From Paraspadella gotoi (lineage: Eukaryota > Animalia > Chaetognatha): a DNA stretch of 64,000 nt. A model generated the notes under the pieces. The model was not told the origin of the DNA. It ran no database searches and worked only from the letters and a program-made list of their open reading frames with translations. The stretch covers positions 290,330-354,329 of the forward strand of contig JBJCIZ010000040.1 of the NCBI GenBank assembly GCA_051294375.1, in the 5' to 3' direction. Positions 5,731-60,942 of this stretch are shown here, in pieces (within the stretch, counting starts at the first letter, position 1; the number at the start of each line of letters is the position of its first letter). The position numbers and the translations under genes are program-made.

Positions 5731-7839
5731 ATGTATTAATTAATCAAATATATTAATTCAGTTAATTAATTATCAATTAATTAATCAATAATTAATTAAT
5801 CAGTCAATTAATCAATTTATTGTTCAATAAATCAATTTATTTATCTATTAATTAATTATTTAATCAATCAATCAAGTCACATTCAATATCTTTCTTATCT
5901 GATGTCTCCTGGTTACGAAAAAAAAAAATATTTGTGGTAGCCTCGAACGTGCAACCTTCGCATCTTAAACAACAATCAGAATTCTCTCTCTTACTTTTGC
6001 TTTGGCTCTTTTGCTCTCCACTCTTTGCCTCACTCTTTCTCTGTCGCTTTTTTCTTTGTTTCTGCATCAATTTTAGAACTTTTGCTCACTTACTCAGCCT
6101 TGTTTGGTCATAAAACATGTCCAAATTCACCTTTCCATTTCTTTTGTTAATATTGAAAATAATTATCATTTCTATAATTATAGTCTTTGATACATTAAAA
6201 AATAATTCTTTTCAATGTTATAAGGAGGAAAAAAAACTTATTAATTTTTTTTAATATAAAAAACATTACAGTATTATTATTAAAAGTAATGATTCATAAA
6301 AATTAATAGCAAATGATCACAATAACATAAGATAAGAAAAACTGTCCTCCATATCCCCCTTGAATACTTATGGAAAACATAATAGAAAAAAAAAAAAACG
6401 AAAAAATTTAAAAAAAAACTTTTTCAGACCATGTCACGAAGAATTATATATTTGCATAAAAAATAAATAAATCAAAAAAATAAAAACATCAGATTGTGAC
6501 AAAATCGATTGGGAAAAATCTGATTTTTTTCAAAATGCAAAAATTATTTCTCAAGTTCCTTATTATAATTCTCCATGAGACAAATGTTTTTTTCTAAAAT
6601 TTAAATATTCAACTTTTTAATTAATTAAAAATCATTTAGTATACTAAACTTTAAAATATTTTATAAAAAATTTATACCTAAAGTTCTAAGAAGATCTTTT
6701 CCCAAAAATGTCTCTTAGATCTTTCTTAAAACGCCAAACAAGTCACAGCCACAAAATGAATACAAAAACTAGAAAAAAGCAATATTGTTTTGTCATTCTG
6801 ATTTAGAGATATTTGGTTGATTGTTATGCCTTAAATTTCCTTTAAATGAAAAAATAATAGGTTTAAAAAGATAGCTCTTGATTCTAGTAATAAATTGAGT
6901 TTGAATATAACTTTTTTAATGAACAAGTTTAACCCAGATCAATTACAATAACAATGGTAAGATATTTTGTCACCGTTTTAAGCTACTTTTAGCCTGATTT
7001 TTTACATATTTTGATTATCTTTGCGATTCTTATGATTAAAAACAGTCATGGTAAAAAAAGCCTATGTTCTTTCGAATAATAGGGCATATGTTAGTAATCA
7101 GACAGAACAAAAATTTTGGTCACAAGGTAAAAGAATTTTGCATGAGAATAGCGTGAATAAAATTTTCACGAGACTGTGCACCGCGACATAAATTATGCAA
7201 AAAAAAAAACGATGTCCGTCCGTCCGTCTGTCCGTCCGTCCCGTCCGTCCGTCCGTCCGTCCGTCTCCGTCCGTCCCGGTCTTCCACCTTAGCAAAAAAA
7301 CTCCAATTTACTCGTGATTGTATGGATGGATTGGTATGAAATTTTGTGTGTGGGTAGGAAACTGTGTGATTGAGATGGATATGAAGTTTCGAGGGAATCG
7401 TGCGAGTGGAAATTGGTTTAAATGGAAAAAAACAAAAAAATATATATCACTATTTGAACGCCAATTGCTCATGAGTGGATAGGGCAATTGACTTGAAATT
7501 TTGTATGATGGTAGGGAAAGTGTGTGATTGAGCTAGATATAAAGTTTCGATGGAATCGTGCGAGTGGAAATGAGTTAAAATGGAAAAACAAAAGTCATAT
7601 TTACTTGAAGTATTTTTACTTAAATTTACTCATAATTATTATGTTTATTAAAAATTGGATAGATAAATCGAATGGAATTTTGTTGTGTGGGTAGGAAAGT
7701 ATGTGATAAAGCTGGATATAAATTTTTTGATGGAATCGTGGAGTGGAAAAGAGTTCAAATTAGAAAACCAAAAGACACATTTATTTGAATTTTTTAAGTT
7801 TCTCTCTCTCTGATTGATTGATTGATGATTGATTGATTG

Positions 7840-8180
7840 ATTGACCAAATTATGCAATTGACAAAAATATGCCAGTTGACCAAATTCTTAAAGTTGACCA
7901 AATTATGCCAGTTGACCAAATTATGCCTGTTGACCAAATCATGCTAGTTGACCAAATTATGCTAGTTGACCAAATTAGGCCAGTTGATAACATTATGCCA
8001 GTTGACCAAATTATGCCGGTTGACCAAATTATCTTAATTGATCAAATTATGTCAGTTGACCAATTTATGTCAGTGGACCAAATTATGTCAGTAGAGACCA
8101 AATATGTCAGTTAACCAAATTATGTCAGTTGACCAAATTATGCAAGTTGATTAAATTATGCAAGTTGACCAAGTTAGCTT
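7840..8180. repeat. 18-bp minisatellite (gttgaccaaattatgcca)
   Basis: Direct tandem units visible; they explain the MPVDQI-repeat ORF. Confidence 0.9.
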
Positions 8181-10645: not shown

Positions 10646-10701
<56 letters not shown>

Positions 10702-10734
10702 TATTAATTTATTGATTTATTGATTTATTGATTG

Positions 10735-11200
10735 ATTGGCTAAATTATGCCAGTTGACAAAATTATTCAAGCGACCAAATTTTGAAAGTTGACAAAATTA
10801 AGCCGGTTGACCAAATTAAGCCAGTTGACCAAAATATGCCAGTTGACCAAATTTTGCTAGCTGACCAAATATGTCAGTTGATCAAATAAGTCACTTGACA
10901 AAATTAAGCCAGTTGACCAAATTTAGTCAGTTGACCAACTTACATCCATTGACCAAATTATGCCAGTTGATCAAATTAAACCAGTTGACCACATTTTGCA
11001 AGTTGACCAAATTATGCAAGTTAAAAAAATTATGTCAGTTGACCATATTATGCCAGTTAACCATATTATGCCAGTTGACCAAATAATGCAAGTTGATTAA
11101 TTTATGTAAGTCGATCCAATTATGCAAAATTACCAAATTATGAAACTTCACCAAATTATGCCAGTTGACCAAATTATTTCTGTTGACCAAATTATGCACA
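10735..11200. repeat. 18-bp minisatellite, second array
   Basis: Same gttgaccaaattatgcca unit, preceded by an (attg)n microsatellite. Confidence 0.9.
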
Positions 11201-11431
11201 TCTACTGGTAATAATTGATAGATCATTTGATTTATTGATTTTTTCATTGATTTATTAAGTAGTCTGTTATGATTTGTTATGCTATTATTTGTTATGATCT
11301 GTTAAGAAATTGAAAGTCAGAAAAAAATTACTGTGATTTATCATCGGATTAGTTTATTATTGCCTAATTATTGTAGGCTGATCCAATAGATATCCTCTAC
11401 TAAAAATGTGATATAATGATATATATTATAT

Positions 11432-11670
11432 TATGGTGGACTAAAATCCACCAACCGTTCATCAGCGGCCATTGGTGCCGAAGGCAAGTCATTCGCCTTC
11501 CAACCCAAAGGTCCGGGATTTTTTTCTAGCCCGGTGGTCGCCTAGCAGTTAAGAGGGACGGGGCGCTTAACCCGCCTGTAACATGGTGTTACAGCCTGAT
11601 CCGAAGCTCAGGGACTGCTTATATTAAACGGTTCTTTCACTAACTCATTACAATAATTACTGTTTCTTCA
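11432..11670 (+). mobile_element. Solo LTR, twister-LTR family 1
   Basis: TATGGTGG...TTCA flanked by 4-bp direct repeat ATAT (11428-11431, 11671-11674); the near-identical copy at 41130-41363 is followed by a PBS. Confidence 0.75.
11544..11619 (+). ncRNA. Twister ribozyme, type P5 permutation (family 1)
   Basis: P5 AGCAGU/ACUGCU; AAGAGG-GA-CGG; mini-P1 GGCGCU; UAA-CCC-GCC; P3 UGUAACA/UGUUACA; P4 CCUGA-UCCG-AAGC-UCAGG; T1 CGG/CCG. Predicted cut U11568/A11569. Confidence 0.8.
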
Positions 11671-11955
11671 ATATATATAATGATCGATTATTATCGTATC
11701 TTATATTATTGCCTCAATCATTATCATTGCATGGATAAATTCTCAGGTAACATTGCTTTAATAATTGTGAATCAACAATCACAAAGTGAAGATTGGGAAG
11801 TGATGATCGTAAAGTAATTATAGGCAAGAGATGATCGGGAAAAAACGATCTTGAATTGGCATTTTGTTTCATAAATTTAGAGAAAAAACTCAACTTCAGC
11901 CTGTTCTCTCATCTGACCACTATTCTGTCTCACCACTTTGTTGGAAAACCTTTAC

Positions 11956-11994
<39 letters not shown>

Positions 11995-12609
11995 CCTTCT
12001 TTTTGCACAAATATTTTCCTTATGGCAAACGCTGATGAAGGCTCGAAATGTGAGCCGAAACATGTCCGTATCTCTAATTACATTCGTTGTAACACAATTA
12101 AAAACTGTGTTTTTTCTCTAAATCATAACAACAACGAAAACGAAAGGTTTATCGCATCATGTTTCATAAATTTAAAAATAATTTTGTTGGCAAGATCACT
12201 ATACTAGGAATTTTTTGTTATGATTTATCGTAATATGTGATGATCACAAATTAAAAGACTCATCATAACTTATCCTCTGGTTAGCTGCTTATTGCTAAAT
12301 TAAAGTAGTCTGATTCGACATTGTTTGCTCAAACTTGTTTTCTTTTTATCAAATTTTTATGAGAAATTAGTATTTAAATTTAGATTTTAATTGAAGTAAA
12401 AGTATTCTGTTTCATTAATTTCAAAGAGTTTGTTCTTTTGCTTTTTTAAAAAGAAATTCACAAAATATTTCAAATTTAACTAATCTGTTAAATTTGTAGT
12501 CGGGCATTGCCTAGGTTCACCCCGCCTAATAAGCATGACACCTTCAGTCCTGACCACCAGCTCATGACCACTAGGTACCGGGTTCAATCCCAACCCGGTA
12601 CCTACCCTG

Positions 12610-12686
12610 TGGGAAGCGTGAGGACGGCCGTAAGCCGCCTTGGGGGCGTGGCAACTCCTCAAGCCTGGTTCCAAGCCCAGGACCCG
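12610..12686 (+). ncRNA. Twister ribozyme, type P5 (family 2, 5' LTR)
   Basis: AAGCGU-GA-GGA-CGGCCG-UAA-GCC-GCC, P3 UUGGGGG../..CUCCUCAA, G-CCUGG-UUCC-AAGC-CCAGG; T1 GGA/UCC. Predicted cut U12631/A12632. Confidence 0.8.
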
Positions 12687-12943
12687 TTCCATGGCTACTA
12701 AAGGGGGTTATAGAAGTTACGGATAGTCATCTTCAGCCCACTTAGCGCCTTATCCACACTGGTGAGGCCCATCCTGTCGAGGGTATTCCAACCTTCTGAT
12801 TCCAGGCCCATGGACGTGCTGAAGATTGCTCCCCTCCCTCCACTGGAAGCAGTGCAGGGTGGGTTACAATCTGGGGGGCATGTAGTCGGGCATTGCCTAG
12901 GTTCACCCCGCCTATAAGCATGACACCTTCAGTCCTGACCCGG

Positions 12944-12998
12944 TGGCTCATTGAGTAAAGCCATCAGCTCATGACAACTAGGTACCAGGTTCAATCCC
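12944..12998 (+). promoter_or_regulatory. tRNA-like Pol III internal promoter (A and B boxes) in family 2 3' LTR
   Basis: A box TGGCTCATTGAG at 12944; B box GGTTCAATCCC at 12988 with tRNA-like spacing. The A box is deleted (about 22 nt) from the 5' LTR. Confidence 0.7.
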
Positions 12999-13016
12999 AA
13001 CCCGGTACCTACCCTG

Positions 13017-13093
13017 TGGGAAGCGTGAGGACGGCCGTAAGCCGCCTTGGGGGCGTGGCAACCCCTCAAGCCTGGTTCCAAGCCCAGGACCCG
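13017..13093 (+). ncRNA. Twister ribozyme, type P5 (family 2, 3' LTR)
   Basis: Same motif as 12610-12686; predicted cut U13038/A13039. Confidence 0.8.
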
Positions 13094-13219
13094 TTCCATG
13101 GCTACTAAAGGGGGTTATAGAAGTTACGGATAGTCATCTTCAGCCCACTTAGCGCCTTATCCACAAATTTACACTTTTTTTAAAATTTTAATTGCTGAAA
13201 AAACTGTTTTCTTTTTCAG

Positions 13220-13535
13220 GAGATTGAAATACTGGGAATCATCTGGAATTAACTATTTTTGGCCAAAAATTTTATTTTTTAAATTTAAAAAGCCACAAGT
13301 TATTACTTCCTTTGTTATTGAAACTGTTGAAGGAAAAGCACCACGTCAAAAATTACATTATTATTTTTGGGGATCAAATAAATCAAATTGTATGGATCTT
13401 GATGCTCCTTCTCTGTATTATGCTACGTTTACAGAAAAATTAGCATCATTTAAAAATGACAAGTCTTTTTATTGCTATGGTTTCCGATTTGAAAAGTCCC
13501 CTGAAAAAACTGCTGCAATTCGATATCCAATAAAG
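13220..13535 (+). CDS. Host gene internal exon, discoidin/F5-8 type C-like domain
   Basis: Polypyrimidine-CAG acceptor, AAG|GTAAAA donor, open frame (W..L.FKFKKPQVITSF...FWGSN...FYCYGF); phase 0 matches the next exon. The domain call is by motif resemblance only. Confidence 0.7.
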
Positions 13536-14144
13536 GTAAAATTAAAAATATGAGAAAATTGAGAAAAATTTTTAATCAAATCTCAGCATGTCCGAATCTA
13601 TAATGCACTTTGTTGGATTGTCGGCCTGCTCTCATTGGTTGGTCAGTAGAGCGTTCAAATATAACAAAATATAAGATATTAAATTCCATTCATAATTTTT
13701 TTACTGTATTTTGCGCGGTGTTCGATGGCTTAGGCTTATCGATACCGTCATTTCTGTGAGACTCTGTCGCCGCCATCCTGAGCGTCTTGACCGGCGCCAT
13801 CGTCTCCTCTGCACTATTTCACCTTAATTCCAAGTTCTTCGTTAGCATGGAGTTGCCCAAGCTAGAACTCAAAGAAGCATCGCGACTCTTAGAACACTGT
13901 TCAAAACAATTATTATTACAACAATAACAGTCATTAACACACCACCACAACTACAACTACCACAATGATCATAATCATCATAAACTAAATAAAATTGACC
14001 ATAACCTGCATAGTGCATAATTAACTCATTAATTAATTCATTAATTAAATCGTGAGCAAATCCGGAATGTTTTGGTGAAACTTGTTTTTTAATAAACAGG
14101 ATATAAACTTGACATAGCTTTCCACCAATATAACTTTTTTTCAG

Positions 14145-14710
14145 TTTTATCGAAACGTGGTGGAGGATGGGAAGTTTGTTGAACAATGTAAACTTTGTTC
14201 CGAAGGAGAATATCAACCAGAAGAAAATGGAATAGCATGCTTATTTTGTGACCCTGGAAAATATACTGAAAAGAAAGGTAGTAAATCTTGCACAAAAACA
14301 TGTTCAAGGGGGAAAATGGCGAATGATGTGTTTAAAGCTACTGGATGTCTGGCTTGTTTACCTGGATCATATAATGATGAAGCTGGAAAAACAACATGTT
14401 GGGCTTGTGAACCTGGGACTCGGTCCTTAAACAAAGGATCTACAAAGTGTGAAAAATGTCCTCGAAATTGGTTCATAGATATGCCAGGACAACAACATTG
14501 TGCGGCTTGCGCTACAGGATGTACAAGTTTTACTGGTGATAGCAAATGCACAGGACCAAAGTCTGGAGATTTAACGAGTTGTGTTTCTAAGTATATTGAT
14601 GTTCAAGGATCAGAAGATTATAGTGGTGGTGGTAATGAGAAAACTCTTTTCAAAATGGCATGGTCATATCAAGGTCCAGGCTGGTGGTCTAGCGATACTG
14701 AATATAACAG
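14145..14710 (+). CDS. Host gene exon with Cys-rich GCC2/GCC3 (ephrin-receptor-like) repeats
   Basis: ttttttcag acceptor, AG|GTAATT donor; repeated CxxCxxGxY/F-x(4-5)-G-xxx-C units. Confidence 0.85.
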
Positions 14711-15345
14711 GTAATTTTATGAAATTTTTTTAAAGATATATTGTACAATGATTATGATGATAATTATTTGCATGAACAAACTTGGATGGAATCAGAATCA
14801 AAAATGGAATCGGATCCGCGACATGGGTAGAATCTTCAAATTCTGACACCGTCTTTGCTTGTGTCTTTTTCCACTTTGGTTTCGTGTTAAATGTTCCCAA
14901 AACTTCCTTTGTGATGGGTAAATAAGAAGGCAAAACAAATTTGTTAAAATAGGCAAGCTATTTGATAAATCAGTTTCATATATCCGTCCAGTCCCTGTTT
15001 TGGTATATTCATTAAATATGAAAAAAATCAATTCATATTTTACATAACATCATATAGGCTATATCCAAAAAAATCCTTTATAATTTTTTTTTAAACATAT
15101 GTAAAAAACATATTGAAAAATGTTACCTTAAAAATCTTAAAAGCATAAGGATCTCGACAAGGAATAGTCTCGTTCATTGATGCGATGATAGTCATTTATT
15201 GATGCGATGATAGTCATTCATTGATGCGATGATTCAATTAGAGAGAGAGTGTACGAAGACTAGCGGGTTCGTGCGACTTCGAAATCGGGAATTATGGCAA
15301 CAGCCGGGTTGCTTGTGATGCCCATTGGGATGGGGCATCTCACTG

Positions 15346-15424
15346 TTGGCTTTGGGGGCTTCCGACCCTCAGTGACGCCTCCTGTCACTGGCGCGGTTAC
15401 CCTAGGACAGTCCCGCTTTGCCAA
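15346..15424 (-). ncRNA. Twister ribozyme, type P5 (family 3, 3' LTR)
   Basis: Minus strand reads UUGGC-AAA-GCGG-GA-CUG-UCCUAGGG-UAA-CCGC-GCC-AGUGAC..GUCACU-G-AGGG-UCGG-AAGC-CCCC-AAA-GCCAA; P2, P3, P4, P5, T1 and T2 can all pair. Predicted cut between 15399 and 15398. Confidence 0.88.
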
Positions 15425-15449
15425 TGCAGAGGGAAGTCGTTAGGACTGT

Positions 15450-15492
15450 GGATGGAACACTACGCCTGGATGGTGTGTTCCCCTCTGAGCCA
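15450..15492 (-). promoter_or_regulatory. Pol III A/B-box-like promoter in family 3 LTR
   Basis: A box TGGCTCAGAGG (15492-15482) and B-like GTGTTCCATCC (15460-15450), upstream of the twister; spacing is short (21 nt). Confidence 0.5.
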
Positions 15493-15803
15493 ATGGATTT
15501 GGCTGAAGGATGGTGTGACGTGAGGCGGTGTGAATATACCGCCACAGGATCCCCGGGCCAAGACATCACTCAGGTTCCTTAAGCCTGAGAGGTGTCTGAC
15601 AAGACTGTTACCATAGTGGGAGAGAGAGAGAGAGCACGAGAGTTGTGGGGGCATAGGTGTTTGTCGTAGCATACCCGAAGTCGGCAGGGCATAGGCGTTT
15701 GTCGTAGCATACCCTGAAAAGGTTGCGTGTTCGATAGTAGGGCTCACCACTTATGGCAACAGCCGGGTTGCCTGTGATGCCCATTGGGATGGGGCATCTC
15801 ACT

Positions 15804-15884
15804 GTTGGCTTTGGGGGCTTCCGACCCTCAGTGACGCTTCCAGTCACTGGCGCGGTTACCCTAAGACAGTCTCACTTTGCCAAC
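15804..15884 (-). ncRNA. Twister ribozyme, type P5 (family 3, 5' LTR; partly mutated)
   Basis: Same fold; P2' is GUGA (one mismatch) and P1 is UCUUAGGG. Predicted cut between 15858 and 15857. Confidence 0.72.
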
Positions 15885-16801
15885 GCAGAAGGAAGTCGTT
15901 AGGACTGTGGATGGAACACATACACCTGGGATGGTGTTCCCCCTCTGAGCCAATGGATTGGCTGAAGGATGGTGGACGTGAGGCAGTGTGAATATACCGC
16001 CACAGAATCTTGTTTGACGCCGTCGATCAAATAAGAGAGAGAGAGAGAGTAGCTGCCCTGCAATGGCCACGAAATCTAGGCCATATAAGTTATTGTATTT
16101 TGCAATTTTGTATTGAGAAATAAGTGCGGAATAAATGGCGATAAAAAAAGTTTTTAGAAAGAAAAAAATAATCAGAATTTTTCAAAAAATGAACGATCAC
16201 GCAAGAGATCGTACAGAGAGACAGAAAGGGAGAGTAGTTTTCATCGTCTTCTTGGTCTCCTTCATCGTCGGTTTTTTCTTTGACTTTGCCATCATTTTCG
16301 TCGTGGTCTTCGTCGTCGCCTTCTTTGTCGTCTTCTTCGTCGTCCTCTTCATCGTCGTCTTCGTCTTCGTCGTCATCTATGCCATGGTTTTTATCGTTTT
16401 CTTCCTTGTTGTCGTCGGTTTTCTTCTACCAATCAATCAATCAGAAACTTACGTAGAAGCCATTTGCAGTTTTTCTGATTGACAGTTAACAAGTTTGAGC
16501 AAACAATGTCGGATCTGCCCATGATCATTATCGGTAATTAATTAATTAATAAATAATTAATTAATTCAAGTTAATTAATTAATTAATAATTAATATATTC
16601 AAGTTAATTGTTTAAGTAATTTGATCCGAAATGTTTGTTTTGATTGATTAATTGACTGATTAATTAATTATTGATTAATTAATTGACTAATTGATTAATT
16701 AACTGATTAATTATTTGATTAATTAATACATCTTGCATTTACATTTAAAATAAAAAGAAAAAGAAGCATAATCAATTAGTGAAACAGGTTCTTTGTTTTT
16801 T

Positions 16802-18072: not shown

Positions 18073-21000
18073 TGTTGGGCCGCGCGGTTCCCCTCCGCGT
18101 TTTGGATCGCAAAATGCAAGCTTCTTCCCTGCGGTCCAGGATTGGAGGGCCTCGACCAATCACCGTCGAGAGTTGGGAGAAGATATTTTACCTTTTTTCC
18201 CACGAATTTCACGCGTAGCCATCAAGGAAACGCGTTGGCTGGGAGTTAATTGAGACGCTCCGATCTTGCCCCTATGGACGGCCAACCGTTTCTAAAACAT
18301 GCGTTTATCAATTGCATAATGGTTTTACTTTGATGCACGAATTTTTATCTTGTTTTTATTTATGTTTTTATCCTGTTTTTACTCGTTTTCGTGCCTTTTT
18401 ATGTGATGCAATATAATACTAACGCTAACCTTTGGATTCCTGGTCGAAATATTAGGTTTTTAGGCAGCAAGATCAAACATTAGAAACGGAGCTGGAACGA
18501 CATCGCGTCTTCGCCGAGGTGAGAGATTTGAAAAAGGTGAGAATTTGAAATTCGATTGAAATTTTTACTTTGATTCCCGGCCTTTTTATGACGCGAATTT
18601 ATTCGCCAAAACGCGACGCTGGTGAAAAAACTAATATTTCTCTCCCTTTCTCTCTCGGCGAAAATTACGACGCGCGGAGATTCACGATACTGAAGGCAAA
18701 ATATTTGGTCTCATTTACGACGCTGATGGTGGAGAAGATTGTTGAGAATTTCTCCGTCTCTCACACCTTCAGCCAAAGATTATGACGGCTTGAGCATCTC
18801 GTTCTGACGACGACGCTCGCCTTTTATACGATTTTGACATTATTATTTTAACCTTTTCCCCTTTTAATTTTCGGTTTTTTTCTTTTCCTATAGATTCGAG
18901 ATAGCTTCACTTGGCTCGGGCCTTTGCCGGTGGCCTCGCAACAATCAGCCTGATGATGAGCTTTGGGCGGCGCATCTGGAGTTGGTCGCGGAGCTGAAGC
19001 AGGTCGCAGAAGGGAAGATTCCGGATTACAACCCTCGGATGCGGGTCAATGCCGCCCTGATGGTGTTGGAAGGGACGAGCATGACGACATTGGATTCAAA
19101 AAGAACTAAGGCTAACAGAGATGAAGTGAATCAAGCTTGAGCTACTCTTCTTGCTTGGGATAGTTTGGCACAGCAAAGAGGGTTTCCAAGGAGCCCAAGT
19201 TATGGTCCTCCTCCCAGATCTTTTTTCCCTGATACGGCTGGTGGAGTGCTTGGTGTTCCTACCACTCAGGTTGATGTAAGGCCCAAGGTGATTGTCACTG
19301 GTCACGCTGATGATTTAGAAAGGCCTTCTCAGTCTGAAGTGGAGGGTGCACCTGCACAGGGGCTACCTCCAAGTGGCAGAGCTGTGGGTGAGCTCAGCCT
19401 GGCTGGTTCTTGTGGTGGCTCCAGAAGGGCTGCTACAGGAACTGGCCGGGCTTCAAGCTGCCCTAGTGATGCTGCTCGGGAGCATTCCAACCATTCTAGC
19501 AGGAGATCAGGGACAAAGAGGGAAGGGAGGTCAGTCAGATCTGGTTCTGGAAGAGATTCGCATGGGTCTGGTAAGAGTAGCAGGTCTGCTAAATCTATGA
19601 AAGCTGAGTTAGCAGCAATTAAAGCTACACAGGCTATTGACCAGGAAATGGTTGATATATTGAAAAAAGATTTTGAACAGAATCAAGCTTTAAATGCTGC
19701 TTTAGAAAAACAAAAATTTGAAAGAGATCTTAAATTAAAAGAATTAGAAGGAAAGAAGATTCAGGATGACTTGCAGGCAAGAATTGATGCTGCTGAAGCT
19801 ATTGATAATGAACAAGAATTACCTCTTCTTGCAGATCCTCCTCAACCTACACAGGATATGGTCGCGGATTGGACGCCAAAGCACTCCTCCGTGACTGATG
19901 CTACCAATGGAGGTGATGCTGCTGCTCCAACGGCAGTAGAGAAGAATTCTTTAAAGGAGAACATCGATTTCAAAGATCCTTCACCAGGTGCTATTGCTCT
20001 GAATCCTTTGGCAGGGGTTTAGGTTCCTCCTATTAATCCTCTTCCTTTGGTTTCAGCCGCAGCAGCGCCTGTAATCGGTGCAGCCCTTCCTCCAGTCCCT
20101 CAACACTTCAGTGCTCAGGATTGTGCCCTGCTGCACATGGTTGGCGGCAGCACTTTGCAACGTAAGCGTCCATCTCAGGCAGAAAAGTGGTCGGGCACAC
20201 CAGCAGGTTGTGAGCCTTTCCTGAGGGAATTTGCTATACACGTTGAGAGTGTTTCAGGCATGACTGGGCATGACAAATTTTTTGAATTGTTGGAGTGGAC
20301 TAAGGGAGCGGCCAATATGGCGATCCAAGAGTTTAAGATGCATGCCAATGGTGACGAAGCTCTGGAACTTTCAAAGACAAGATTACGCGAATATTGGGGT
20401 TACAAAAAATGTACTGCTTTGGATAAATTGGAAGAGCTCCTGAAGAAGGAGGAGATCAAATTCTCTGAACATGATGGTCTGCGCGAATTTTGTTGGGATC
20501 TCCAATGGATGGCAAAGGTAGCTCAAATCAATGATGATTATAAAGAGTTTGATTCCATTGACGTCCTGCGGAGAATCATCGAAAGACATCCCCTTCATCA
20601 GAGAAGCTTGGAAGAAATATCACCACAAGATGACGGTACGGTTGAATCGCATCAGCAATGACACCTGCGATGACTGACTCCACTGCTGTGGCAAAGAAGA
20701 TTCCGTATTGTCAAGTATGTAAGAATGAACATAATATTATTGATTGTTCTTTGTTCAAATCAAAATCTGTGTCTGAACGAGTTTCCCAGATTCGGAGCAC
20801 TGGCAGCTGCTATTGATGTCTGCGGCGAGGACACATGCAACAAGATTGCTGGGTCAAAGAGATGTGTAGCAAGTGCGATTCAGATCTACAGCACACGCTC
20901 CTTCATTTTGATGCTCAACCTGCCCAGGTCTCTAGTTCGGATTTTGGTGACCTGCCTCATGAGAAGGATGGTCGATCTAGAGATGATTTGGAGGCTGAAG

Positions 21001-41115: not shown

Positions 41116-41162
41116 ATGCTAGCTAGTATTATGGTGGACTAAAATCCACCAACCGTTCATCA

Positions 41163-41234
41163 GCGACCGTTGGTGCCGGAGGCAAGTCATTCGCCTCCCA
41201 ACCCAAAGGTCCAGGGTTCTAGCCCGGTGGTCGC
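41163..41234 (+). promoter_or_regulatory. tRNA-Gly-like module (Pol III A/B boxes) inside family 1 LTR
   Basis: Acceptor-like GCGACCG/TGGTCGC, A box TGGTGCCGGAGG, TCGCCTCCCAA resembling a Gly anticodon arm, B box GGTTCTAGCCC. Confidence 0.65.
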
Positions 41235-41236
41235 CT

Positions 41237-41312
41237 AGCAGTTAAGAGGGACGGGGCGCTTAACCCGCCTGTAACACGGTGTTACAGCCTGATCCAAAGC
41301 TCAGGGACTGCT
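41237..41312 (+). ncRNA. Twister ribozyme, type P5 (family 1)
   Basis: As 11544-11619, but the L4 loop is UCCA (weaker T1). Predicted cut U41261/A41262. Confidence 0.7.
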
Positions 41313-43549
41313 TATATTAAACGGTTCTGTCACTAACACATGACAATAATCACTGTCTTTTCATTGGTGAGCCCGACTTCCGAACACAACAGCAACAACA
41401 ACACTTTCAAGCAACATGCCTCAACCTAGAACCAAATTCCGAAACTCGATCCCAAACCTTTTTTCATAATATTTTTATATTTTTGGATAGAGAATGACTG
41501 TAATAATGTAAATCTTAAGTTACATCTACATTAGCCCATGGGTTTTGAAGAAATCGACTAAAAACAACCAAAATTCCTCTCCCTTTTTTCAACATTCTCG
41601 CCTTTTAAGATTTTCGCCGATCCTGACTGCCTCTTACAAACTTATAATTTTGCTAGTTAATTTTTTTTTCTTAAACGAGCAAAAGAAATCCACAACTTTC
41701 TAATCTTTTATAATTTCGAGGTAAAAAAATATAATACCTCTAAGGTCGGGTAAGTCTGACTGAGATCTAGGTAAGTAAAGACGGGGGAAAATGGTGGAAA
41801 AGGAATATATATTGTAAGCGGCTAAATCGGCGGTAAAAAAATGGTAACAGAGACTGACCGGGAGAGGGACGGTGAGAGAGAAAGAGAGGAAAAAGTGTGA
41901 ATGAAAAACTTAAACCTTGGACTCGAGCCTGGGTCTCCGGGGGGAGGGGGAGGAGGATGAGGAGAAATGATGAGGAAACGGTGCATGCTGGCGAAACCTA
42001 TCGGTTCTTTCTGAATACATTACATTAACATTAGGATATTGTGAAAGTGTAATGTCTTGTGAAGCCTGTGAAAGTTGAGTAATTAAAAAATTCGCCTATT
42101 TTGTTATTGAAAACTAACATTAAAGTGAAGGCTCCTTTCAGTAAACGTCCCTGTTCTCTAAAATAACTAGTGGAAAAGAAAGATAAATACTTAGACTGTG
42201 ATGGGGTGAATAATATTTTGTAGAATTTTGTAAGCATGCATGTAAAATCAGACAAGCAATTATTTAAGTGACAAAAAATTTACATTTTCTTTATCCAAAA
42301 AAACTTTTAAGTTTTACTAGAGTACAATTTAACCTTTTTTCTTTCAGAATCATTAAAAAGAATTAAATTTTCATTTATTTTTATGGGGTGTCATTAGTTT
42401 TAAAATTAATTATAATTTTGACTTAGTTTGACACTCACCCTGTAAAGAGGTTTCAGCAAAAATATTTCTAAAATTGTATCTTTTATGTGTCCTATGATTA
42501 TGGCTTTATTTTGGTACTATTGCCATCCCTTTATCTTTGTTCCTTCAAAAGATATTAGGAAAAAAAGTTTTTTCTCTCAACCTTCCTTTTAATTTCTTTT
42601 AAAATAAAAATTTTGCAATGAAAACTGGATAACTTTAATATGAAAAAATTGGTCAATAATAAAAAGAAAAATAGAACGAGCTCTAGGGACACAAGGCTTT
42701 TAGAATCTCATAATTTAAAGTGTCATTTATAATGCTAACATACCATAATCTCATTAATAACTTTAAAAAAGTGAAATTTCCCTTTCATTTCTATAGTAAA
42801 AATGAGTTTTGAAAATCCTCCGGAGATGAGTAGTTCATTTCCCCTGGCTGGTTTGATAGTAAAATCTTTATCAAATGCCACAAGAAAAAAGGAACGAGCT
42901 CTTGAGATGTAAAGCTGTCGGAATCGTGTGTTTTTACAAATGTTTTCTACTGGAACTTTTTGCAGGCTCTTTTGTAAGGTTGGGCAGTCAGATTCGAACG
43001 GAAAAATGTTTAATTTTTTTTTAGCAAGATTTTCGCCTATAGAAAGAGAAAAAAATTGTGGAAAGCTGGAAAGTTTCTAAAAAAATTTGTGGAAAAAAAA
43101 TATAAGTTATTTCCTTTACTTTCGAATTTCGAAATTCTCCTTGACCGAATTGAAAATTTTCCGTTGAAATTTTCACTCTTCACTCCGCTGGCTAGAAAAA
43201 TATTGTGGATACCCGGAAAATCTGTGGTCAACCATTTTAAAAATAGACAAGCTTAAAAATTTGCGGGCAAAAAGTGGTTGTTATTGTTCCTTCTGGTACT
43301 GGACAGCTGGTCGTGGTCATTGGCCGTAGCAACAAAAATTACAAATTTTCCACTGACTAACACGACGAACGGACGGAAAAATTGGAGAAAAATAGTATAT
43401 TTACTTCCGGCTCAGTCCATTAGAATTTCTAAACAGTCCCAATACTTTTTATTAGTAGTTTTGATGACCAGAAAATTACAAATTTTCCTGGGAAAATTTG
43501 AAATTTTTGTATTATTTTTCTCCCATTCCTCCCTTTCTATTTTCACTAA

Positions 43550-55191: not shown

Positions 55192-56302
55192 TAAGGCATA
55201 GTAAAATTTCTAAATTTAACTTTAATTAAAATTCTAAAAGTGAGGATCGAAAAACATTATACTAATGAACATTTATGTAATAAAAAAATTTACAATAAAT
55301 TTTATAATTTACGCAGTAGGCCATATTTATACTAGTACTAAACCAATAAATGTTCAAATTTCAAAACAGTTTTTTCTAAGATTTTTTTGCAGATTTGGAT
55401 TCGTCATAAAAAGTTGGTAAAAAGAAATATAACTCTTTTTAAAAAATTCCTTCATTAAGTGGGTCAAAAATTAGAAAAAGCTATATTTTAAGCTGAAAAT
55501 TAACTTTTTATATATTAAATATAGTTTTTTAAATTTTTAACCCACTTAATGAAAGAATTTTTAAAAATGATTTTTATTTTCTTTTATCAACTTTTGACGA
55601 GGAATTCAAATCTGCAATCAAAATTAAAAAAAGCCTATTTTAAAATTTTTCGATATTATAAGGATAGTACTGAAGCAAAGGAAAAGACTTTTTGTAGAGA
55701 AAAGTATTATTTACTTTAAAATTGTAACACATTAACAAGAAGAAATTGAACAGAGAGAATCAGAGGGGAATCTGTACAGCAAAACTGTAAAACAATTGAA
55801 GAGAGAAATTCACTAGGTGGCGAATTAAAACTAACTAAAGGGGACACTATGTGGGAGAGTGAACAAAGGGTTGTGGATAGAAAATAGTCACTATGACAAC
55901 ATGTAAACAATTCGCTACATCCCCGCCCCAAGGCCACGACCGGGGTTGTTGCCTGATAGATGCTAACTAGTATTTACAAAAGAGTTTTGTGTTTTTTAGT
56001 TCAGAAGTTGAAAAATATTCCTATTGACGCTGTTGACACCAAGACCTTCGTCCGAAGGTAAAAGCATTGCAGGAAGCGCCGGCCGGTCTCGAGCATTACG
56101 ATGAGGTTGGCGACGGGACGGGGTTGGCGGCGGTGGCGTCGGAGGACGCGTTCGGGGCGGCCACGGCGGTTCCTTGGAGTGGCTTGTGGTGGAAATTGTG
56201 GAAGCTGGGTTGGTGTGGGTAGAAGTGGTTTGCGGATAGGGCGACCACATGGTGGAGCCATGGGTGGAGTTGGGGGATTGGTTGGGTCGGTGAAGGCTGG
56301 TT

Positions 56303-58174
56303 TTAGTCTGTCAACAGATATTTCTTCTGTTCCACGGCCAGGGATGTCGATTTTAAAATTCTTAGGGCCTCGTTCAATGAAGCAGTAAGGGCCTGTATAT
56401 GGACTTGAAAGGCTGTGGCCTTGTGGGCCGCGGAGAATAAAAACGAATTCCGAATTTCTGGTAGCACATATGTTGTTTGGAGGCCGTGGGAGGTGGCAGG
56501 GATGGGGCGCATAAGGGCGACGTCATGTCTTAGATTGTCAAGGAGTACCTGCTGGTTATTGTCTTGGTCATGGTTGTTGGATGCAGGGTTTATTTCTCCG
56601 GGAATAGTGAGAGTGTCTCCCAGGACCAATTCTGCTGGTGAGGCCTGGAGATCGTCTCTGTGGGTGGTTCTGATGCCGAGTAGTGTCCATGGGAGTTGGT
56701 TGAACCAATTAGAGCCTTGGGCGTCGCAACGTGTCTTTAGTGATGTTTTGAGTGTACGGTGCATCCGTTCCACCATGCCATTAGATTGAGGGTGGTATGC
56801 TGTGGTGGTTTGAAGTGTGTAACCAATTAGTTGAGAGAGTTGGTGCCACAATTCCGATGTAAATTGTGGGCCTTTGTCTGATATGACTGTAGATGGGATA
56901 CCGAATCTTACAATCCAGTTGTGAAGGAAGGCTGAGGCAATTGTTTGAGAAGTGGTATCTCTTAAAGGAATAGCTTCTGGCCATCGTGTAAATCTGTCAA
57001 TGCAAGTAAGAAGGTGAGTATGATTGTTTGATTCTGGCAGGGGGCTTACAATGTCAACATGAATGTGGTCGAATCTCTTTTGTAGTGTTTCGAAGGGTTG
57101 TAGGGGGGCATGTGTGTGGCGGTAGATTTTATTTTGCTGACAGATGAGACATGTACGAGCCCAGTTGTTGATGTCTTGTGATGCTGAAGGCCAGATAAAT
57201 CGTTTGGTGATGAGTTTTTGTGTTGACCTGATGTTTGGATGAGAGAGTGAGTGGATGGTGTCAAATACTTTTTGACGCCAGGTTGTAGGGACAATAGGGC
57301 GTGCTCTCCCAGTGTTTACATCACAAATGAGGTCGATGTCATTAACTTTGACTTGTTGAAATTTAAGGCTTGTGTGAGGGTCACTGAGCAGCCGTTGTGT
57401 GTCTGGGTCGGTAGTTTGTTCCTGGGCAAATGCTGTGAAATCAACACCTTGAGGGCCAATGGCGTTGATAGTGGATTCGAGCGTGGGGGTGGTTGCAGGT
57501 GAGTGTTTTACGCGGGACAGGGCGTCAGCTACGAGATTTGACTTGCCTTCAATGTATTTTATGTCTGTGGTGAATTCGGAAATGTTTGCTAGTTGGTATG
57601 ATTGACGCATGGTGTGAGGTTCTGTCTTTTTGCGGATGGCTGGGATTAGACTGTTGTGGTCAGAAAAAAGAGTGAAATGGCGCCCCTCAATGAAAGGGCG
57701 AAAATGGCGTACTGATCTGTGCGCTGCAAGCAGTTCTTTATCGAACGGTGACCATTTAGTTTGTGGTTCCTTGAGTGGAGCAGAGAAAAAACCTAGTGGT
57801 TGCCATGTAGAGTTGATGAGCTGCTCCAGAACGCCTCCTATGGCCGTATTAGAGGCATCAACTGTGAGGGCAAGGGGTGCACTATCAATTGGATGAACAA
57901 GCATAGTGGCATTGGCCAGTGCTTGCTTGACACCATCGAATGCTTGCTGACATTCTTCTGTCCACTGGAGTCGTTTTGGATTGCCGCAAAGTGCAGAGTA
58001 AAGGGGAGTGAGAATGCTTGCGATCTTGGGGATGAATATCCTGTAGTAGTTAAGCATTTCTAAAAAGCGTTGGGCTTCTTTAATGGTCGTGGGTGAGGGA
58101 ATGTTATGAATGGCTTCAACTTTGCTTTTGAGAGGTTTGACGCCTTTGGCATCAACATGGTAAGAAAATGCCAA
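56303..58174 (-). pseudogene. Gypsy RT connection, RNase H and integrase
   Basis: TVDAS, KELLA, SDH, NLVADALSR, HSLSHP..CLIC, IDRFTRWPEA, SDKGPQF, YHPQSNGMVER. Confidence 0.95.
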
Positions 58175-58216
58175 GAAAATTGAGTGATTCTACTCCTAAA
58201 ACACATTTAGCACGGT

Positions 58217-59017
58217 TTATGACCAGGCCATTGGTTTCCAGTGCATCAAAGAGGCGATTAAGGTCTTCAACATGCTCTGAAGGTGTGGTTGATTGGTTGG
58301 TGCGACAAGAATATCGTCAAGATAGACAAAGATGTGAGGAATGCCTTGCAGGACTTGATCCATCATTCTTTGAAAATCTTGTCCTGCATTTTTGAGTCCA
58401 AATGGAGTGCGTGGAAATTCCCAATTGCCAAATGGAGTAATGACTGCGGTTTTGTGAATGTCTTGTGGAGCAACTGGGATTTGATGATAACCTTTACAGA
58501 GATCTACCTTGCTAAAGATTTTCTTGCTTGCAATATGAGCATTGAAATCGCTGAGGTTTCTAATGGGATAGCGATTGTCCTTAGTGGCTGCATTGAGTTT
58601 TCTGTAATCGCCACATGGGCGCATTGATCCATCTGGTTTTCTCACCATGTGCAGTGGAGAAGACCATGCGCTTTTGCTTCTCCTGACAATACCAAGCTTC
58701 TTCATTCTTTCAAATTCGGCTTTGGCTATGGCAAGCTGGTCCGGGGCGAGCCGACGGGCGCGGGAATGAACTGGTGGACCTTCTGTGGGAATGTGGTGCT
58801 CAATGCCGTGTTTTGGTTTTGAAGGGTCGAATGAGAGTGTTGTGAGATTTTGTCGGTCATCAAGGAGCTTGGTGTATTGATTGACAACATGGTTGACGCG
58901 AAAGGTGTGATCTTTGTAGGTTTTGCCTGTGACTGTGGTAAAATCCTCAAGATCAATGAGGAGACCGAGAGTGTGGTCGGCTGTAAGGTGAAAATCCATG
59001 AGGAAGTCTGCTCCCAA
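58217..59017 (-). pseudogene. Gypsy reverse transcriptase
   Basis: WSSPLHMVRKPDGSMRPCGDYRKLN, PFGLKNA, YLDD. Confidence 0.95.
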
Positions 59018-59280
59018 AATAGGTGTGGTTATGTTTGCGACAGTGAAGTTCTATTCAAAACTGCGGCTGCCCAGTTGAAGTGTCATATTATGTGTGCCAT
59101 AGCAGTCGATAGGTGTGCCATTGGCGGCGTGAAGTGACTTTGAGATTGGGCCATTTGCTAATTGAGCTGAGGTTGGTGCAATGAGTGAGACACTGGCGCC
59201 GCCATCTACTAGCCAGGTGATGTTGTTGTTGTCGTCGCGGACATGAAGAGGTATGATGTTGCCGGCAGCGGCGTTTATCC

Positions 59281-60505
59281 CTAATGGCTGCCGGCCTGGC
59301 CATTTCCCCGGTAGCGGCAGGGAAGCTTACATTTTTTAGCTCTGGATCCGAATTCGTTGTGGTACCAACAATAGTTGGGGTTGTTTTGTTTGGAGTTGTT
59401 GTTGTTGTTGGTTGAGTTTCTCTGGAAGTTGTTGTTGCGTCTCTGTAGGTTTGGCCTGTTTGTCTTAAATCTTTGGCTGTTGTTGGTGGCAGCGCAGACA
59501 TTGGCATAGGTTGGAGTAGTGTAGAGTGGTTGATCAGCTTCTTCAGTGACATTGCAGATAAGCTCATCATCCTCAATGCTGCTGTCGCAAGTTAGTTCCA
59601 CTTCTGGTGGTTGCCAATGGTGGAGGTGGTTGACAGATGATGTGGTGGCGGAGGGAGTGTTGGCCTTGAGAGCCAACTCACCTGATGCTGTGTAAAAAGA
59701 GTCGGCATGCTTGGCGATTGCCTCTAGTTTTATGTCGTCCTTAATGACGACATTACAAACATGGTGAGGAAGGACGCTGGCGAGAATCTCGCGACAAAGG
59801 TCGTCAACGGAAAGTTTAGCAACGGTAGCTCTGAGAGCGGCGACAAACTGGGATGGCGTTCGTCCGCGAAGAGAATGAGGGCCAAGGAATTTAGCTGCTC
59901 GTTGGCGTGGCTTCTCCTCAAAGAGTTCATATAAAGTATTTTCCAAATCCATAAGACTTTGTTGAGTTTCATTTGGATAAAGATAAAAATCGTGAAGCAG
60001 TACTTGATGCTCTTTCGGTATAGCAGCTAGAATGTGGAGACGTTTTGTGGCTGGGTCAGTAACTTTTGCAAGCTGAAATGCGCCAGTTGCGGCAGCTATC
60101 CACATTCAAATGTTTTGTGAATCAAATGGGGGCAGTTTTGGGGTTTTTGGCCATTCCTCTTGAGTGGGAATGGGAGTGGTGTTTATTGGGGAGTGGGTAG
60201 TGCTTGGCGCTGTGGTAGTGTTATTGAATTGGTTCAGAAATTGTGTTGTGAATTCTTTAAACATTTCATGCATATGGGCGGTTAATTCATTTTTCATTTG
60301 ATTTAAGGTTGCTTCAATTGGAGGTGGGTTGTTGGCGGTCCATGTTTTCTACGTCTTCAAAAACGGAAGAGTTGGTAACGGCGCTGTTCGCGATGCTTGA
60401 GATGCTCGAGCGGGTGGTGGGAGGCCCAGAACCCACGATTCGGACGCTAGAGATACTGGAGCTGACGCGAGATCTTGCGCGACCACAAGGGATCAGTTGT
60501 TCCAA
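59281..60505 (-). pseudogene. Gypsy gag (interrupted by stops/frameshift)
   Basis: PKLPPF, GRTPSQF and the CWYHNEFGSRAKKCKLPC knuckle. Confidence 0.85.
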
Positions 60506-60942
60506 TGGCGACGCCGTTTTGACTTTGTTCTTTTAGTCGGGCTCACCATGAAGCAAAGGAAAAAACTTTTTATAGAGAAAAGTATTATTTACTTTAAAAA
60601 TGTAACACATTAACAAGAAGAAATTGAACAGAAAGAAATATGAGGGGAATCTGTACAGCAAAACTGTAAAACAATTGAAGAGAGAAATTCACTAGGTGGC
60701 GAATTAAAACTAACTAAAGGGGGCACTATGTGGGAGAGTGAACAAAGGGTTGTGGATAGAAAATAGTCACTATGACAACATGTAAACAATTCGCTACAGT
60801 ACTATATATAAATATAATCACTGCGAAAATTAAAAAACATAAAATTAATTTTTTTTACAAATTAATGTTCACTGATGGTATGTTGTTCATAATTGACTTT
60901 TAGAATTTTCGTATGTAACTTTCATTACCCCTTAATGAGGAA

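What the first reader, a model, noticed from the sequence alone, without database searches (positions are those of the whole stretch)
11432..16004. Candidate new system: Gypsy-dependent mini-LTR retrozymes with a Pol III promoter and a permuted twister ribozyme in each LTR
Seen: three families with little primary similarity share one design, a 240-285 bp LTR containing tRNA-like A/B boxes and then a type P5 twister. Families 2 and 3 are complete (PBS TGGTGAG(G)CCC, 120-205 bp non-coding internal region, G-rich PPT, second LTR); family 1 occurs as a solo LTR and as LTR plus PBS. The 4-bp TSDs are ATAT, AATT and GAAT. Known: plant LTR retrozymes carry hammerheads, animal retrozymes are mostly non-LTR hammerhead tandem repeats, and Cassandra TRIMs carry 5S promoters. 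Inference: this is an animal twister-based analogue, which I do not recall being described. Self-cleavage in both LTRs would release unit-length RNAs that could circularise and be copied by Gypsy RT/integrase.
Basis: partly seen in the sequence, partly recalled or inferred. Interest (0 to 1): 0.95.

Follow-up and report, generated by a model that had tools for sequence, protein, structure and literature searches.

The report
Twister-ribozyme mini-LTR retroelements in an animal
Three unrelated, very abundant mini jumping-gene families in this animal genome each carry, in their terminal repeat, a tRNA-like stretch followed by a fold with all the hallmarks of a self-cutting twister RNA, so they likely cut their own RNA into unit lengths that a Gypsy retrotransposon would copy, a design known from plants only with a different ribozyme; cutting and expression are untested.

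Summary
The anatomy is real. Families 2 (12495-13165, +) and 3 (16004-15293, -) are complete non-coding mini-LTR elements with 4-bp target duplications; family 1 (11432-11670) is a solo LTR. All three are very high-copy in four sequencing runs. Each LTR holds a type-P5 twister motif with intact catalytic positions and family-specific compensatory pseudoknot pairs (0, 2 and 0 of 3000 shuffles), though Rfam scores it far below threshold. New here: P1 is a different palindrome in each family, which predicts cleavage as dimers, and a CsRn1-type Gypsy with the same primer site lies at 60798-55671. The Pol III part is not new: tRNA-bearing animal TRIMs are Helenus/TRIMp3 (PMC10886601), and the promoter signal is weak and damaged in these copies. 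I found no paper on twisters in LTR elements (10 searches). This scan earlier noted palindrome-armed P5 twisters in Naiad elements of other genomes (unchecked notes). Cleavage, transcription, circles and family-1 completeness are untested. Verdict: new variant of a known kind (animal, twister-based counterpart of plant LTR retrozymes).

The parts
11432..11670 (+). Family 1 solo LTR (239 bp), flanked by ATAT
   Evidence: 92% identical to 41130-41363; many contigs break off at 11432 (table 7)
11469..11539 (+). Family 1 tRNA-Gly-like stretch (candidate Pol III promoter); B-box loop disrupted by a T7 run in this copy
   Evidence: ARAGORN only at 70% threshold here, 80-85% in the 41k copy; most contigs lack 5 of these bases (table 4)
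11544..11619 (+). Family 1 type-P5 twister motif; conserved G at 11557, P1 palindrome 11562-11567, predicted cut 11568/11569, L4 11600-11607
   Evidence: 0 of 3000 shuffles; 7-bp P5
12495..12758 (+). Family 2 5' LTR (264 bp; lacks the 22 bp that hold the A-box)
   Evidence: 259 of 263 aligned positions identical to the 3' LTR
12606..12694 (+). Family 2 5' twister motif; G 12620, P1 palindrome 12625-12630, predicted cut 12631/12632
   Evidence: (Rfam Twister-P5 16.7 bits, sub-threshold)
12760..12770 (+). Family 2 primer-binding site (tRNA-Trp-like)
   Evidence: most contigs have one base fewer at 12766, giving the same first 10 nt as the Gypsy PBS (table 4)
12759..12880 (+). Family 2 non-coding internal region (122 bp) ending in a G6 polypurine tract
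12881..13165 (+). Family 2 3' LTR (285 bp), followed by TSD AATT
12944..12998 (+). Family 2 A-like box (12944-12955) and B box (12988-12998)
   Evidence: tRNA-like only at 70% threshold, where 60 of 300 shuffles also score
13013..13101 (+). Family 2 3' twister motif; predicted cut 13038/13039 (unit between cuts 407 nt)
   Evidence: 2 of 3000 shuffles
15752..16004 (-). Family 3 5' LTR (253 bp), with A box 15952-15940 and B-like box 15917-15909
   Evidence: A+B descriptor met by 40 of 2000 shuffles
15805..15883 (-). Family 3 5' twister motif; G 15871, predicted cut 15858/15857; this copy departs from most contigs at 15864 (P1) and 15874 (P2)
   Evidence: table 3, 67
15547..15751 (-). Family 3 non-coding internal region (205 bp): PBS 15749-15740, extended tRNA-like complement, a short duplication, CT repeat, weak PPT
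15293..15546 (-). Family 3 3' LTR (254 bp); TSD GAAT on the + strand
   Evidence: (240 of 251 identical to 5' LTR)
15346..15424 (-). Family 3 3' twister motif; G 15412, P1 palindrome 15407-15400, predicted cut 15399/15398 (unit between cuts 459 nt)
   Evidence: (0 of 3000 shuffles)
41130..41378 (+). Family 1 LTR plus PBS, no second LTR seen; duplicated at 47673-47923
55671..60798 (-). CsRn1-type Gypsy retrotransposon, candidate helper family: 250-bp LTRs (96.8% identical), TSD GTAC, PBS at 60548, CHCC gag, RT, RNase H, integrase in separate reading frames; no twister in its LTR
   Evidence: clade features from PMC2582038

Best explanation
These are three high-copy families of non-coding mini-LTR retroelements whose LTRs hold a tRNA-like stretch followed by a type-P5 twister motif; they are likely transcribed by Pol III, likely cut themselves at both LTRs (probably with the two ribozyme copies pairing through the palindromic P1), and the unit-length RNA would then be circularised and copied by a CsRn1-type Gypsy element. 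Steps: (1) LTR-PBS-internal-PPT-LTR with 4-bp TSD: shown for families 2 and 3. (2) High copy number: shown as depth. (3) Twister anatomy: shown in sequence. (4) Catalysis: predicted (about 0.7). (5) Dimer assistance: inferred from three different palindromes (about 0.55). (6) Pol III initiation in the LTR: inferred (about 0.6). (7) Two cuts leave a 407-nt or 459-nt RNA with PBS and PPT but no terminal repeat, so reverse transcription needs a circle, as argued for plant retrozymes: inferred. (8) Gypsy RT/integrase in trans: inferred from PBS, PPT, LTR ends and TSD length.
For: All conserved twister positions are present in each family: GA of L1, U^AA, the GC of L2, and L4 of form U-NNN-A-A-G-C (elements as described in PMC5408937). 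The 3-bp pseudoknot covaries between families: CGG/CCG, GGA/UCC, CUG/CGG, and most family-3 contigs have the Watson-Crick letter at 15409 (table 3). The pair closing L4 is A-U in family 1 and G-C in 2 and 3; P3 and P4 differ in sequence but pair. Shuffles: 0, 2 and 0 of 3000 per LTR; none in the Gypsy LTR. A P5 stem, not part of the descriptor, sits at the expected place in all three. The P1 linkers are GGCGCU, CGGCCG and UCCUAGGG: none folds alone, each self-pairs at -8.3 to -11.0 kcal/mol; three different central 4-nt palindromes would arise by chance about (1/16)^3 if independent (my arithmetic). P1 is dispensable and P1/P2 flaws are tolerated while pseudoknots and catalytic bases are not (PMC5408937, PMC11662667), which fits what is weak and what is intact here. 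Twister, tRNA-like stretch and PBS are on the same strand in all families. Depth over the LTRs is 3-4 orders above neighbouring single-copy bins in 4 of 4 runs. Gypsy at 60798-55671 has a PBS identical to family 1's over 14 nt, 4-bp TSD and CX2HX9CX3C gag. Circular family-3 unit folds better than shuffles (z -3.2, 40 shuffles).
Against: Rfam does not recognise the motifs at threshold. The descriptor was written after I had seen the sequences; it also hit one unrelated locus (62538-62619) and 3 of 15 shuffled windows. P2 has only 2 pairs in families 1 and 2. P5 is individually not significant (81, 287, 42 of 1000 shuffles). The tRNA/Pol III signal is weak (17 of 300 shuffles reach the family-1b call; family 2 fails my A+B descriptor), and the absence of T4 runs is uninformative (561 and 801 of 1000 shuffles also lack them). 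The family-2 unit is not clearly more folded than chance (z -1.5). The copies in the interval are partly damaged. Family 1 is not shown to have two LTRs. Only one insertion each of families 2 and 3 could be read whole.
Confidence: 0.55

Rival explanations
1. The twister is active but serves mainly as the 3'-end former (a terminator substitute): the RNA runs from the Pol III start in the 5' LTR to the cut in the 3' LTR, keeps an R region of roughly 80-100 nt, and is reverse-transcribed as a linear template like Cassandra; no circle is needed.
For: Families 2 and 3 have no T4 run in their LTRs, whereas many published Helenus LTRs have the tRNA-like part near the LTR end followed by a T-rich tract (supplement parts 1, 5, 6, 8 of PMC10886601, read by eye). 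Weak P1/P2 could make the first copy slow. Cassandra uses a short R made by Pol III.
Against: Both LTRs carry the same ribozyme, so a 5' cut must be escaped; a dimer formed through a symmetric palindrome would favour both cuts; plant LTR retrozymes with the same layout give circles (PMC4918200).
Confidence: 0.2
2. The motif is a twister relic captured once or several times (for example from another retroelement's tail) and no longer cuts; the elements are ordinary Helenus-type TRIMs.
For: Sub-threshold Rfam scores; 2-bp P2; mismatch in the pseudoknot of the 41k/47k family-1 copies; destroyed motif in an old family-3-like copy near 760-981.
Against: Three families that have lost all other similarity keep every catalytic position with different but compensating pairs; where one search lists family-3 majority letters inside the motif (15409, 15864) they improve pairing, one (15413) weakens P2; no majority difference inside the family-1 or family-2 motif appears among the 40 rows shown (288 not shown).
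Confidence: 0.15
3. Family 1 is not a TRIM but the LTR of a larger, possibly autonomous Gypsy element (the 41k copy being a truncated 5' end), so only families 2 and 3 are mini elements.
For: After its PBS the 41k copy continues with about 100 nt of leader-like sequence containing an ATG and no second LTR; its PBS equals the Gypsy PBS over 14 nt.
Against: Its LTR has the same tRNA-plus-twister design as the two non-coding families and is unlike the AT-rich, twister-free LTR of the Gypsy in the window.
Confidence: 0.25
4. The twister-like pattern is a chance or tRNA-derived look-alike (L4 resembles a T-loop/B box).
For: ARAGORN at lowered threshold places pseudo-tRNAs over the motif in all families; family 2's L4 matches a B-box pattern with two mismatches.
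Against: L4 loops are 8 nt, begin with TTC only in family 2, and covary with the distant L1 strand; shuffle rates below 0.001 per family; lowered-threshold ARAGORN calls are common in shuffles.
Confidence: 0.04

Closest known systems
Plant LTR retrozymes (Cervera, Urbina, de la Pena 2016, PMC4918200; review PMC7761336)
   Same: Non-coding LTR-PBS-internal-PPT-LTR element, 4-bp TSD, a self-cleaving ribozyme motif in each LTR, Gypsy-type PBS/PPT; two cuts would give a unit RNA without R.
   Different: Animal host; twister P5 instead of type III hammerhead; tRNA-Trp-like instead of tRNA-Met PBS; smaller unit (407-459 vs about 600-1000 nt); tRNA-like internal promoter; P1 palindrome; circles and cleavage not shown here.
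Helenus / TRIMp3 (Kojima 2024, PMC10886601), with Cassandra and Ajax
   Same: TRIM under 1.3 kb, tRNA-derived A/B boxes in the LTR, 4-bp TSD and Gypsy-type PBS in animals (tRNA-Trp used by some wasp families), several families per genome, solo LTRs.
   Different: No ribozyme is reported for Helenus (word search: 'twister' 0, 'ribozyme' only in a reference). In the consensus LTRs I read (4 of 11 supplement parts) the tRNA-like part nearly always lies close to the LTR's 3' end; here it is in the 5' half, followed by about 130-165 nt that hold the twister. The tRNA-like parts here are more degenerate.
Type-P5 twister ribozyme (Rfam RF02684; PMC5408937)
   Same: Order of strands, L1 GA and U^AA, both pseudoknots, L4 pattern, P2, P4, optional P3 and P5.
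   Different: P1 is a 6-8-nt palindrome with no room for a normal hairpin; scores below Rfam's cut-off; sits in LTR elements.
Twister T-variants of Perere-3 (RTE non-LTR element, Schistosoma; PMC8501958)
   Same: Twister tied to a retroelement and to defining an RNA end; P1 imperfect.
   Different: Non-LTR, type P1, single copy at the 5' end, P1 completed by the target site; here internal to both LTRs and permuted.
Animal non-LTR retrozymes with dimer-acting type I hammerheads (PMC7229834, PMC7761336; bioRxiv 10.64898/2026.07.22.740005)
   Same: Animal retroelement ribozymes with one weak helix that cleave better as dimers; circular RNAs of 170-400 nt.
   Different: Those are tandem repeats without LTR, PBS or PPT, tied to Penelope-like elements, and use hammerheads.

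Membership tests
Type-P5 twister ribozyme | Conserved L1/L4 nucleotides incl. catalytic G and U^A site | tested here: met
   all three families
Type-P5 twister ribozyme | Two pseudoknots (3-bp L1-L4, 2-bp L2-L4) | tested here: met
   3-bp pairs covary between families; one mismatch in the 41k/47k family-1 copies
Type-P5 twister ribozyme | Stems P2 and P4, termini in P5 | tested here: met
   P4 4-6 bp, P2 2-4 bp, P5 5-8 bp; P5 alone not significant in shuffles
Type-P5 twister ribozyme | Stem P1 as an intramolecular hairpin | tested here: not met
   6-8-nt palindrome, no monomer fold; P1 is reported dispensable, so this marks a variant rather than excluding function
Type-P5 twister ribozyme | Rfam RF02684 at gathering score | tested here: not met
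   16.8 bits vs 37.6 in family 2; no P5 hit in families 1 and 3
Type-P5 twister ribozyme | Site-specific self-cleavage | not testable with these tools
   needs in vitro assay
Helenus / TRIMp3 | Short non-coding element with two LTRs, PBS, PPT | tested here: met
   families 2 (671 bp) and 3 (712 bp); family 1 not shown; family-3 PPT weak
Helenus / TRIMp3 | 4-bp TSD and Gypsy-type tRNA PBS (animals) | tested here: met
   family-1 PBS matches 12 of the first 13 nt of the tRNA-Trp PBS in Fig. S2 of PMC10886601
Helenus / TRIMp3 | tRNA-derived sequence with boxes A and B in the LTR | tested here: inconclusive
   sub-threshold tRNA-Gly cloverleaf in family 1, A+B in family 3, B plus A-like in family 2; shuffle rates 0.01-0.2
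Helenus / TRIMp3 | Transcription by Pol III | not testable with these tools
   also unvalidated for Helenus itself
LTR retrozyme (plant) | Type III hammerhead in each LTR | tested here: not met
   no hammerhead hit in Rfam searches; twister motif instead, so not filed as a member
LTR retrozyme (plant) | Non-autonomous LTR layout with 4-bp TSD, PBS, PPT | tested here: met
LTR retrozyme (plant) | Abundant circular RNA between the two cuts | not testable with these tools
   contigs only
CsRn1 clade of Gypsy (helper at 60798-55671) | CX2HX9CX3C gag, tRNA-Trp PBS, 4-bp TSD | tested here: met
   against PMC2582038
CsRn1 clade of Gypsy (helper at 60798-55671) | Phylogenetic placement with CsRn1 | not tested
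   no tree built; homologs are animal Gypsy RTs

The most novel reading that the evidence does not exclude
An undescribed class of animal LTR retrozymes: Pol III-driven, Gypsy-mobilised mini elements whose permuted twister cleaves only when the 5'- and 3'-LTR copies pair through a palindromic P1, so that only full-length transcripts are cut, giving circular RNAs of 400-460 nt; it would be the first natural dimer-acting twister and an origin of the retrozyme life cycle independent of plants and of hammerheads.
Probability: 0.35. Interest if true: 0.88.

Novelty: new variant of a known kind. Interest (0 to 1): 0.74.

Why it matters
If the motifs cut, the LTR-retrozyme strategy (ribozyme in each LTR, circular RNA template, borrowed Gypsy enzymes) has arisen in animals with another ribozyme class and another promoter, which would make it a general solution rather than a plant oddity, and would give twister ribozymes a second defined biological role after Perere-3. 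A palindromic P1 kept in three different sequences predicts a natural dimer-dependent twister, a simple logic gate that is directly testable in a one-day transcription assay. Such motifs are missed by Rfam, so TRIM libraries in other invertebrates may hide more.

Tried and rejected
No whole genome is held, so copies and TSDs could not be counted genome-wide. No RNA holder listed among 9 runs (one run is only guessed to be RNA); this says nothing on expression. Variation across family-1 copies and what follows its PBS in other copies stayed unexamined. MAFFT misaligned the 5' halves of the motifs, so no covariance model or formal pair count was made. Descriptor hit at 62538-62619 dropped as chance (G-U-rich, outside any LTR). 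Lowered-threshold ARAGORN calls over the twister itself rejected (shuffle rate high). Absence of T4 runs rejected as evidence. Homolog search with the host exon gave 2 unnamed hits, so the host phylum is not fixed; 'animal' rests on the Gypsy homologs and a BEL/Pao element in the window (metazoan restriction recalled). Roth et al. 2014 and Lunse et al. 2017 were not held under the ids tried; the CHiTA supplement (PMC11662667) was too large to read and could contain related sequences; Repbase and Dfam were not available.

Full report
Observation. The interval holds three elements. Family 1 is a 239-bp solo LTR at 11432-11670 between ATAT copies; two more copies (41130-41363, 47673-47908), which lie in one 6.2-kb tandem duplication, are followed by a primer-binding site but by no second LTR. 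Family 2 (12495-13165, +) has LTRs of 264 and 285 bp (259 of 263 aligned positions identical, plus a 22-bp gap), a 122-bp internal region and TSD AATT. Family 3 lies on the minus strand (16004-15293): LTRs of 253 and 254 bp (240 of 251 identical), 205-bp internal region, TSD GAAT. No ORF exceeds 70 aa. The families are not alignable to each other (local scores 17-20). In Logan contigs of 4 of 4 runs laid (three studies; 4 of the 9 runs listed), summed depth over the LTRs is three to four orders of magnitude above neighbouring single-copy bins, e.g. 0.4-2.2 million against about 190-290 in X3; the tool warns that this is no copy number, so I read it only as 'very repetitive'. 116 contigs leave the stretch at exactly 11432 with unrelated flanks, which fixes the family-1 end.

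The twister motif. Rfam finds nothing at gathering score in the window. At E up to 10 it places Twister-P5 on both family-2 LTRs (16.7 and 16.8 bits, cut-off 37.6), a partial twister-P1 on family 3 (13.5 bits) and nothing on family 1. I wrote a descriptor for the P5 order (P2', GA, 3-nt pseudoknot strand, linker, U^AN, P2, GC, P4, U-NNN-A-N-G-C), from recalled consensus and the Rfam alignment, after seeing the sequences. It hits the five LTRs of the interval and one unrelated locus; 3 of 15 shuffled windows give one hit. Per LTR, 0, 2 and 0 of 3000 dinucleotide shuffles pass, and the Gypsy LTR has no hit. The telling point is covariation between otherwise unrelated families: the 3-bp L1-L4 pseudoknot reads CGG/CCG, GGA/UCC and CUG/CGG (most family-3 contigs carry the Watson-Crick letter at 15409), the pair closing L4 is A-U or G-C, and P3 and P4 pair with different sequences. 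A P5 stem, which the descriptor did not ask for, is in place in all three, each followed by an A-rich linker, but is not significant alone (81, 287 and 42 of 1000 shuffles for the copies at 11.5k, 12.6k and 15.4k). Weak parts are P2 (2 pairs in families 1 and 2) and P1. Passages read from PMC5408937 and PMC11662667 say P1 is dispensable, P1 and P2 flaws are tolerated, and pseudoknots and catalytic bases are not; that pattern fits an active motif but does not show activity.

P1 is a palindrome. Between the pseudoknot strand and the cut there are only 6-8 nt: GGCGCU, CGGCCG, UCCUAGGG. None folds alone; each self-pairs between two strands at -8.3, -10.7 and -11.0 kcal/mol. The family-3 5' copy has a wobble here (-5.6), but most contigs have the other letter at 15864. 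A monomer could still close one or two pairs over a tetraloop, so monomer activity is not excluded; but three different central palindromes suggest selection for two ribozymes pairing, as with amphibian type I hammerheads that cleave efficiently only as dimers (passages of PMC7229834 and PMC7761336). In a full transcript the partners would be the 5'- and 3'-LTR copies, so cutting would wait until the whole unit is made. This is inference. I noted it before consulting earlier findings; four unchecked notes of this scan describe P5 twisters, two of them with a dimer reading, in Naiad Penelope-like elements of other genomes; they are leads, not support, but they offer a possible donor of the module. 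None described an LTR element.

The promoter. Upstream of each twister is a tRNA-like stretch. The 41k family-1 copy folds as a tRNA-Gly cloverleaf at 80-85% of ARAGORN's threshold (17 of 300 shuffles reach 80%) and meets an A+B descriptor (42 of 2000); both family-3 LTRs meet the descriptor with short spacing (40 and 20 of 2000); family 2 has a good B box and an A-like box that fails the descriptor. In the flagged copies the promoter is partly damaged: a T7 run in family 1a that most contigs lack, and the 22-bp gap in the family-2 5' LTR, a junction with low depth in the runs. So Pol III is plausible, not established.

The helper. PBS sequences begin TGGTGAGCCC in families 1 and 3 and, in most contigs, in family 2 (one base fewer at 12766). 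Family 1's differs from the tRNA-Trp PBS in Fig. S2 of PMC10886601 at 1 of the first 13 nt. A Gypsy element at 60798-55671 has a PBS identical to family 1's over 14 nt, G-rich PPT, 250-bp LTRs 96.8% identical, TSD GTAC, RT, RNase H and integrase (in separate frames) and a CX2HX9CX3C gag. These are the marks of the CsRn1 clade (passages of PMC2582038); no tree was built. Its AT-rich LTR has no twister and no similarity to the three families.

Mechanism. Shown: layout, TSDs, repetitiveness, motif anatomy, shared PBS. Inferred: Pol III starts in the 5' LTR; both twisters cut; the 407-nt (family 2) or 459-nt (family 3) unit holds PBS and PPT but no terminal repeat, so, by the argument made for plant retrozymes (passages of PMC4918200), it must be circularised, probably by a host ligase acting on 5'-OH and cyclic-phosphate ends, before Gypsy RT can copy it; integrase gives 4-bp TSDs. 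The circular family-3 unit folds better than shuffles (z -3.2), family 2's barely (z -1.5; 40 shuffles each). Rivals: twister as 3'-end former on a linear RNA with R (0.2); inactive relic (0.15); chance look-alike (0.04). Separately, family 1 may be the LTR of a larger element (0.25).

Comparison and novelty. The Pol III mini-LTR layout is known: Helenus/TRIMp3 occurs in six animal phyla with 4-bp TSDs and Gypsy-type PBS (PMC10886601; main text parts 1-4 of 6 read). That paper names no twister; in its consensus file (parts 1, 5, 6, 8 of 11 read by eye, six short strings searched in all) I saw no twister, and the tRNA-like part nearly always sits near the LTR end. Ribozyme-bearing LTR elements are described for plants with hammerheads; animal retrozymes are described as non-LTR (passages). 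Twisters in retroelements are described for the non-LTR Perere-3 (passages). Ten full-text searches (listings and abstract starts) showed no twister-bearing LTR element and no natural dimer-acting twister; subscription journals, Repbase/Dfam and the CHiTA supplement were not seen. It works like an LTR retrozyme and is built like a Helenus TRIM, but fails the hammerhead criterion of the first and is only inconclusively a member of the second: a new variant of a known kind. Interest 0.74: strong sequence case and cheap decisive tests, but no RNA data, only one whole insertion each of two families, and no relatives found outside this organism.

Noticed in passing
window about 760-981 (-): Old, decayed family-3-like LTR: 5' end still matches, twister motif destroyed.
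   Followed up: partly
window 15716-15749 (-): Family 3's PBS continues for about 30 nt in sequence that reads like the complement of a tRNA T-arm and beyond (on the + strand a B-box-like stretch), as if a long part of the tRNA primer was once copied into the element; resemblance to tRNA-Trp past 19 nt is from recall. The majority letter at 15718 removes the T4 run there.
   Followed up: partly
window 11432 and 15293: Family 1 starts TATGG rather than TG and family 3 ends CCATA rather than CA; several published Helenus LTRs also start TAT.
   Followed up: no
window 18105-25440 and 26683-34137: Two tandem copies (92.5% identical) of a BEL/Pao element, with a Gypsy-type CHCC gag fragment on the opposite strand at about 23490-24096.
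   Followed up: no
window 39379-51994: 6.2-kb tandem duplication (97%, many small indels; could be an assembly artefact) containing a 496-bp inverted-repeat pair (39832-40326 / 40630-41123) that abuts the family-1 copy.
   Followed up: no
window 54375-55180 (-): Second gag-protease fragment with a CHCC motif, without LTR next to it.
   Followed up: no
window 14118-14714 (+): Host exon with three ephrin-receptor-like cysteine repeats (PF07699); families 2 and 3 lie on either side, probably in introns.
   Followed up: partly
window 7751-8177, 10685-11268, 51989-52987: 18-bp and 38-bp tandem arrays.
   Followed up: no
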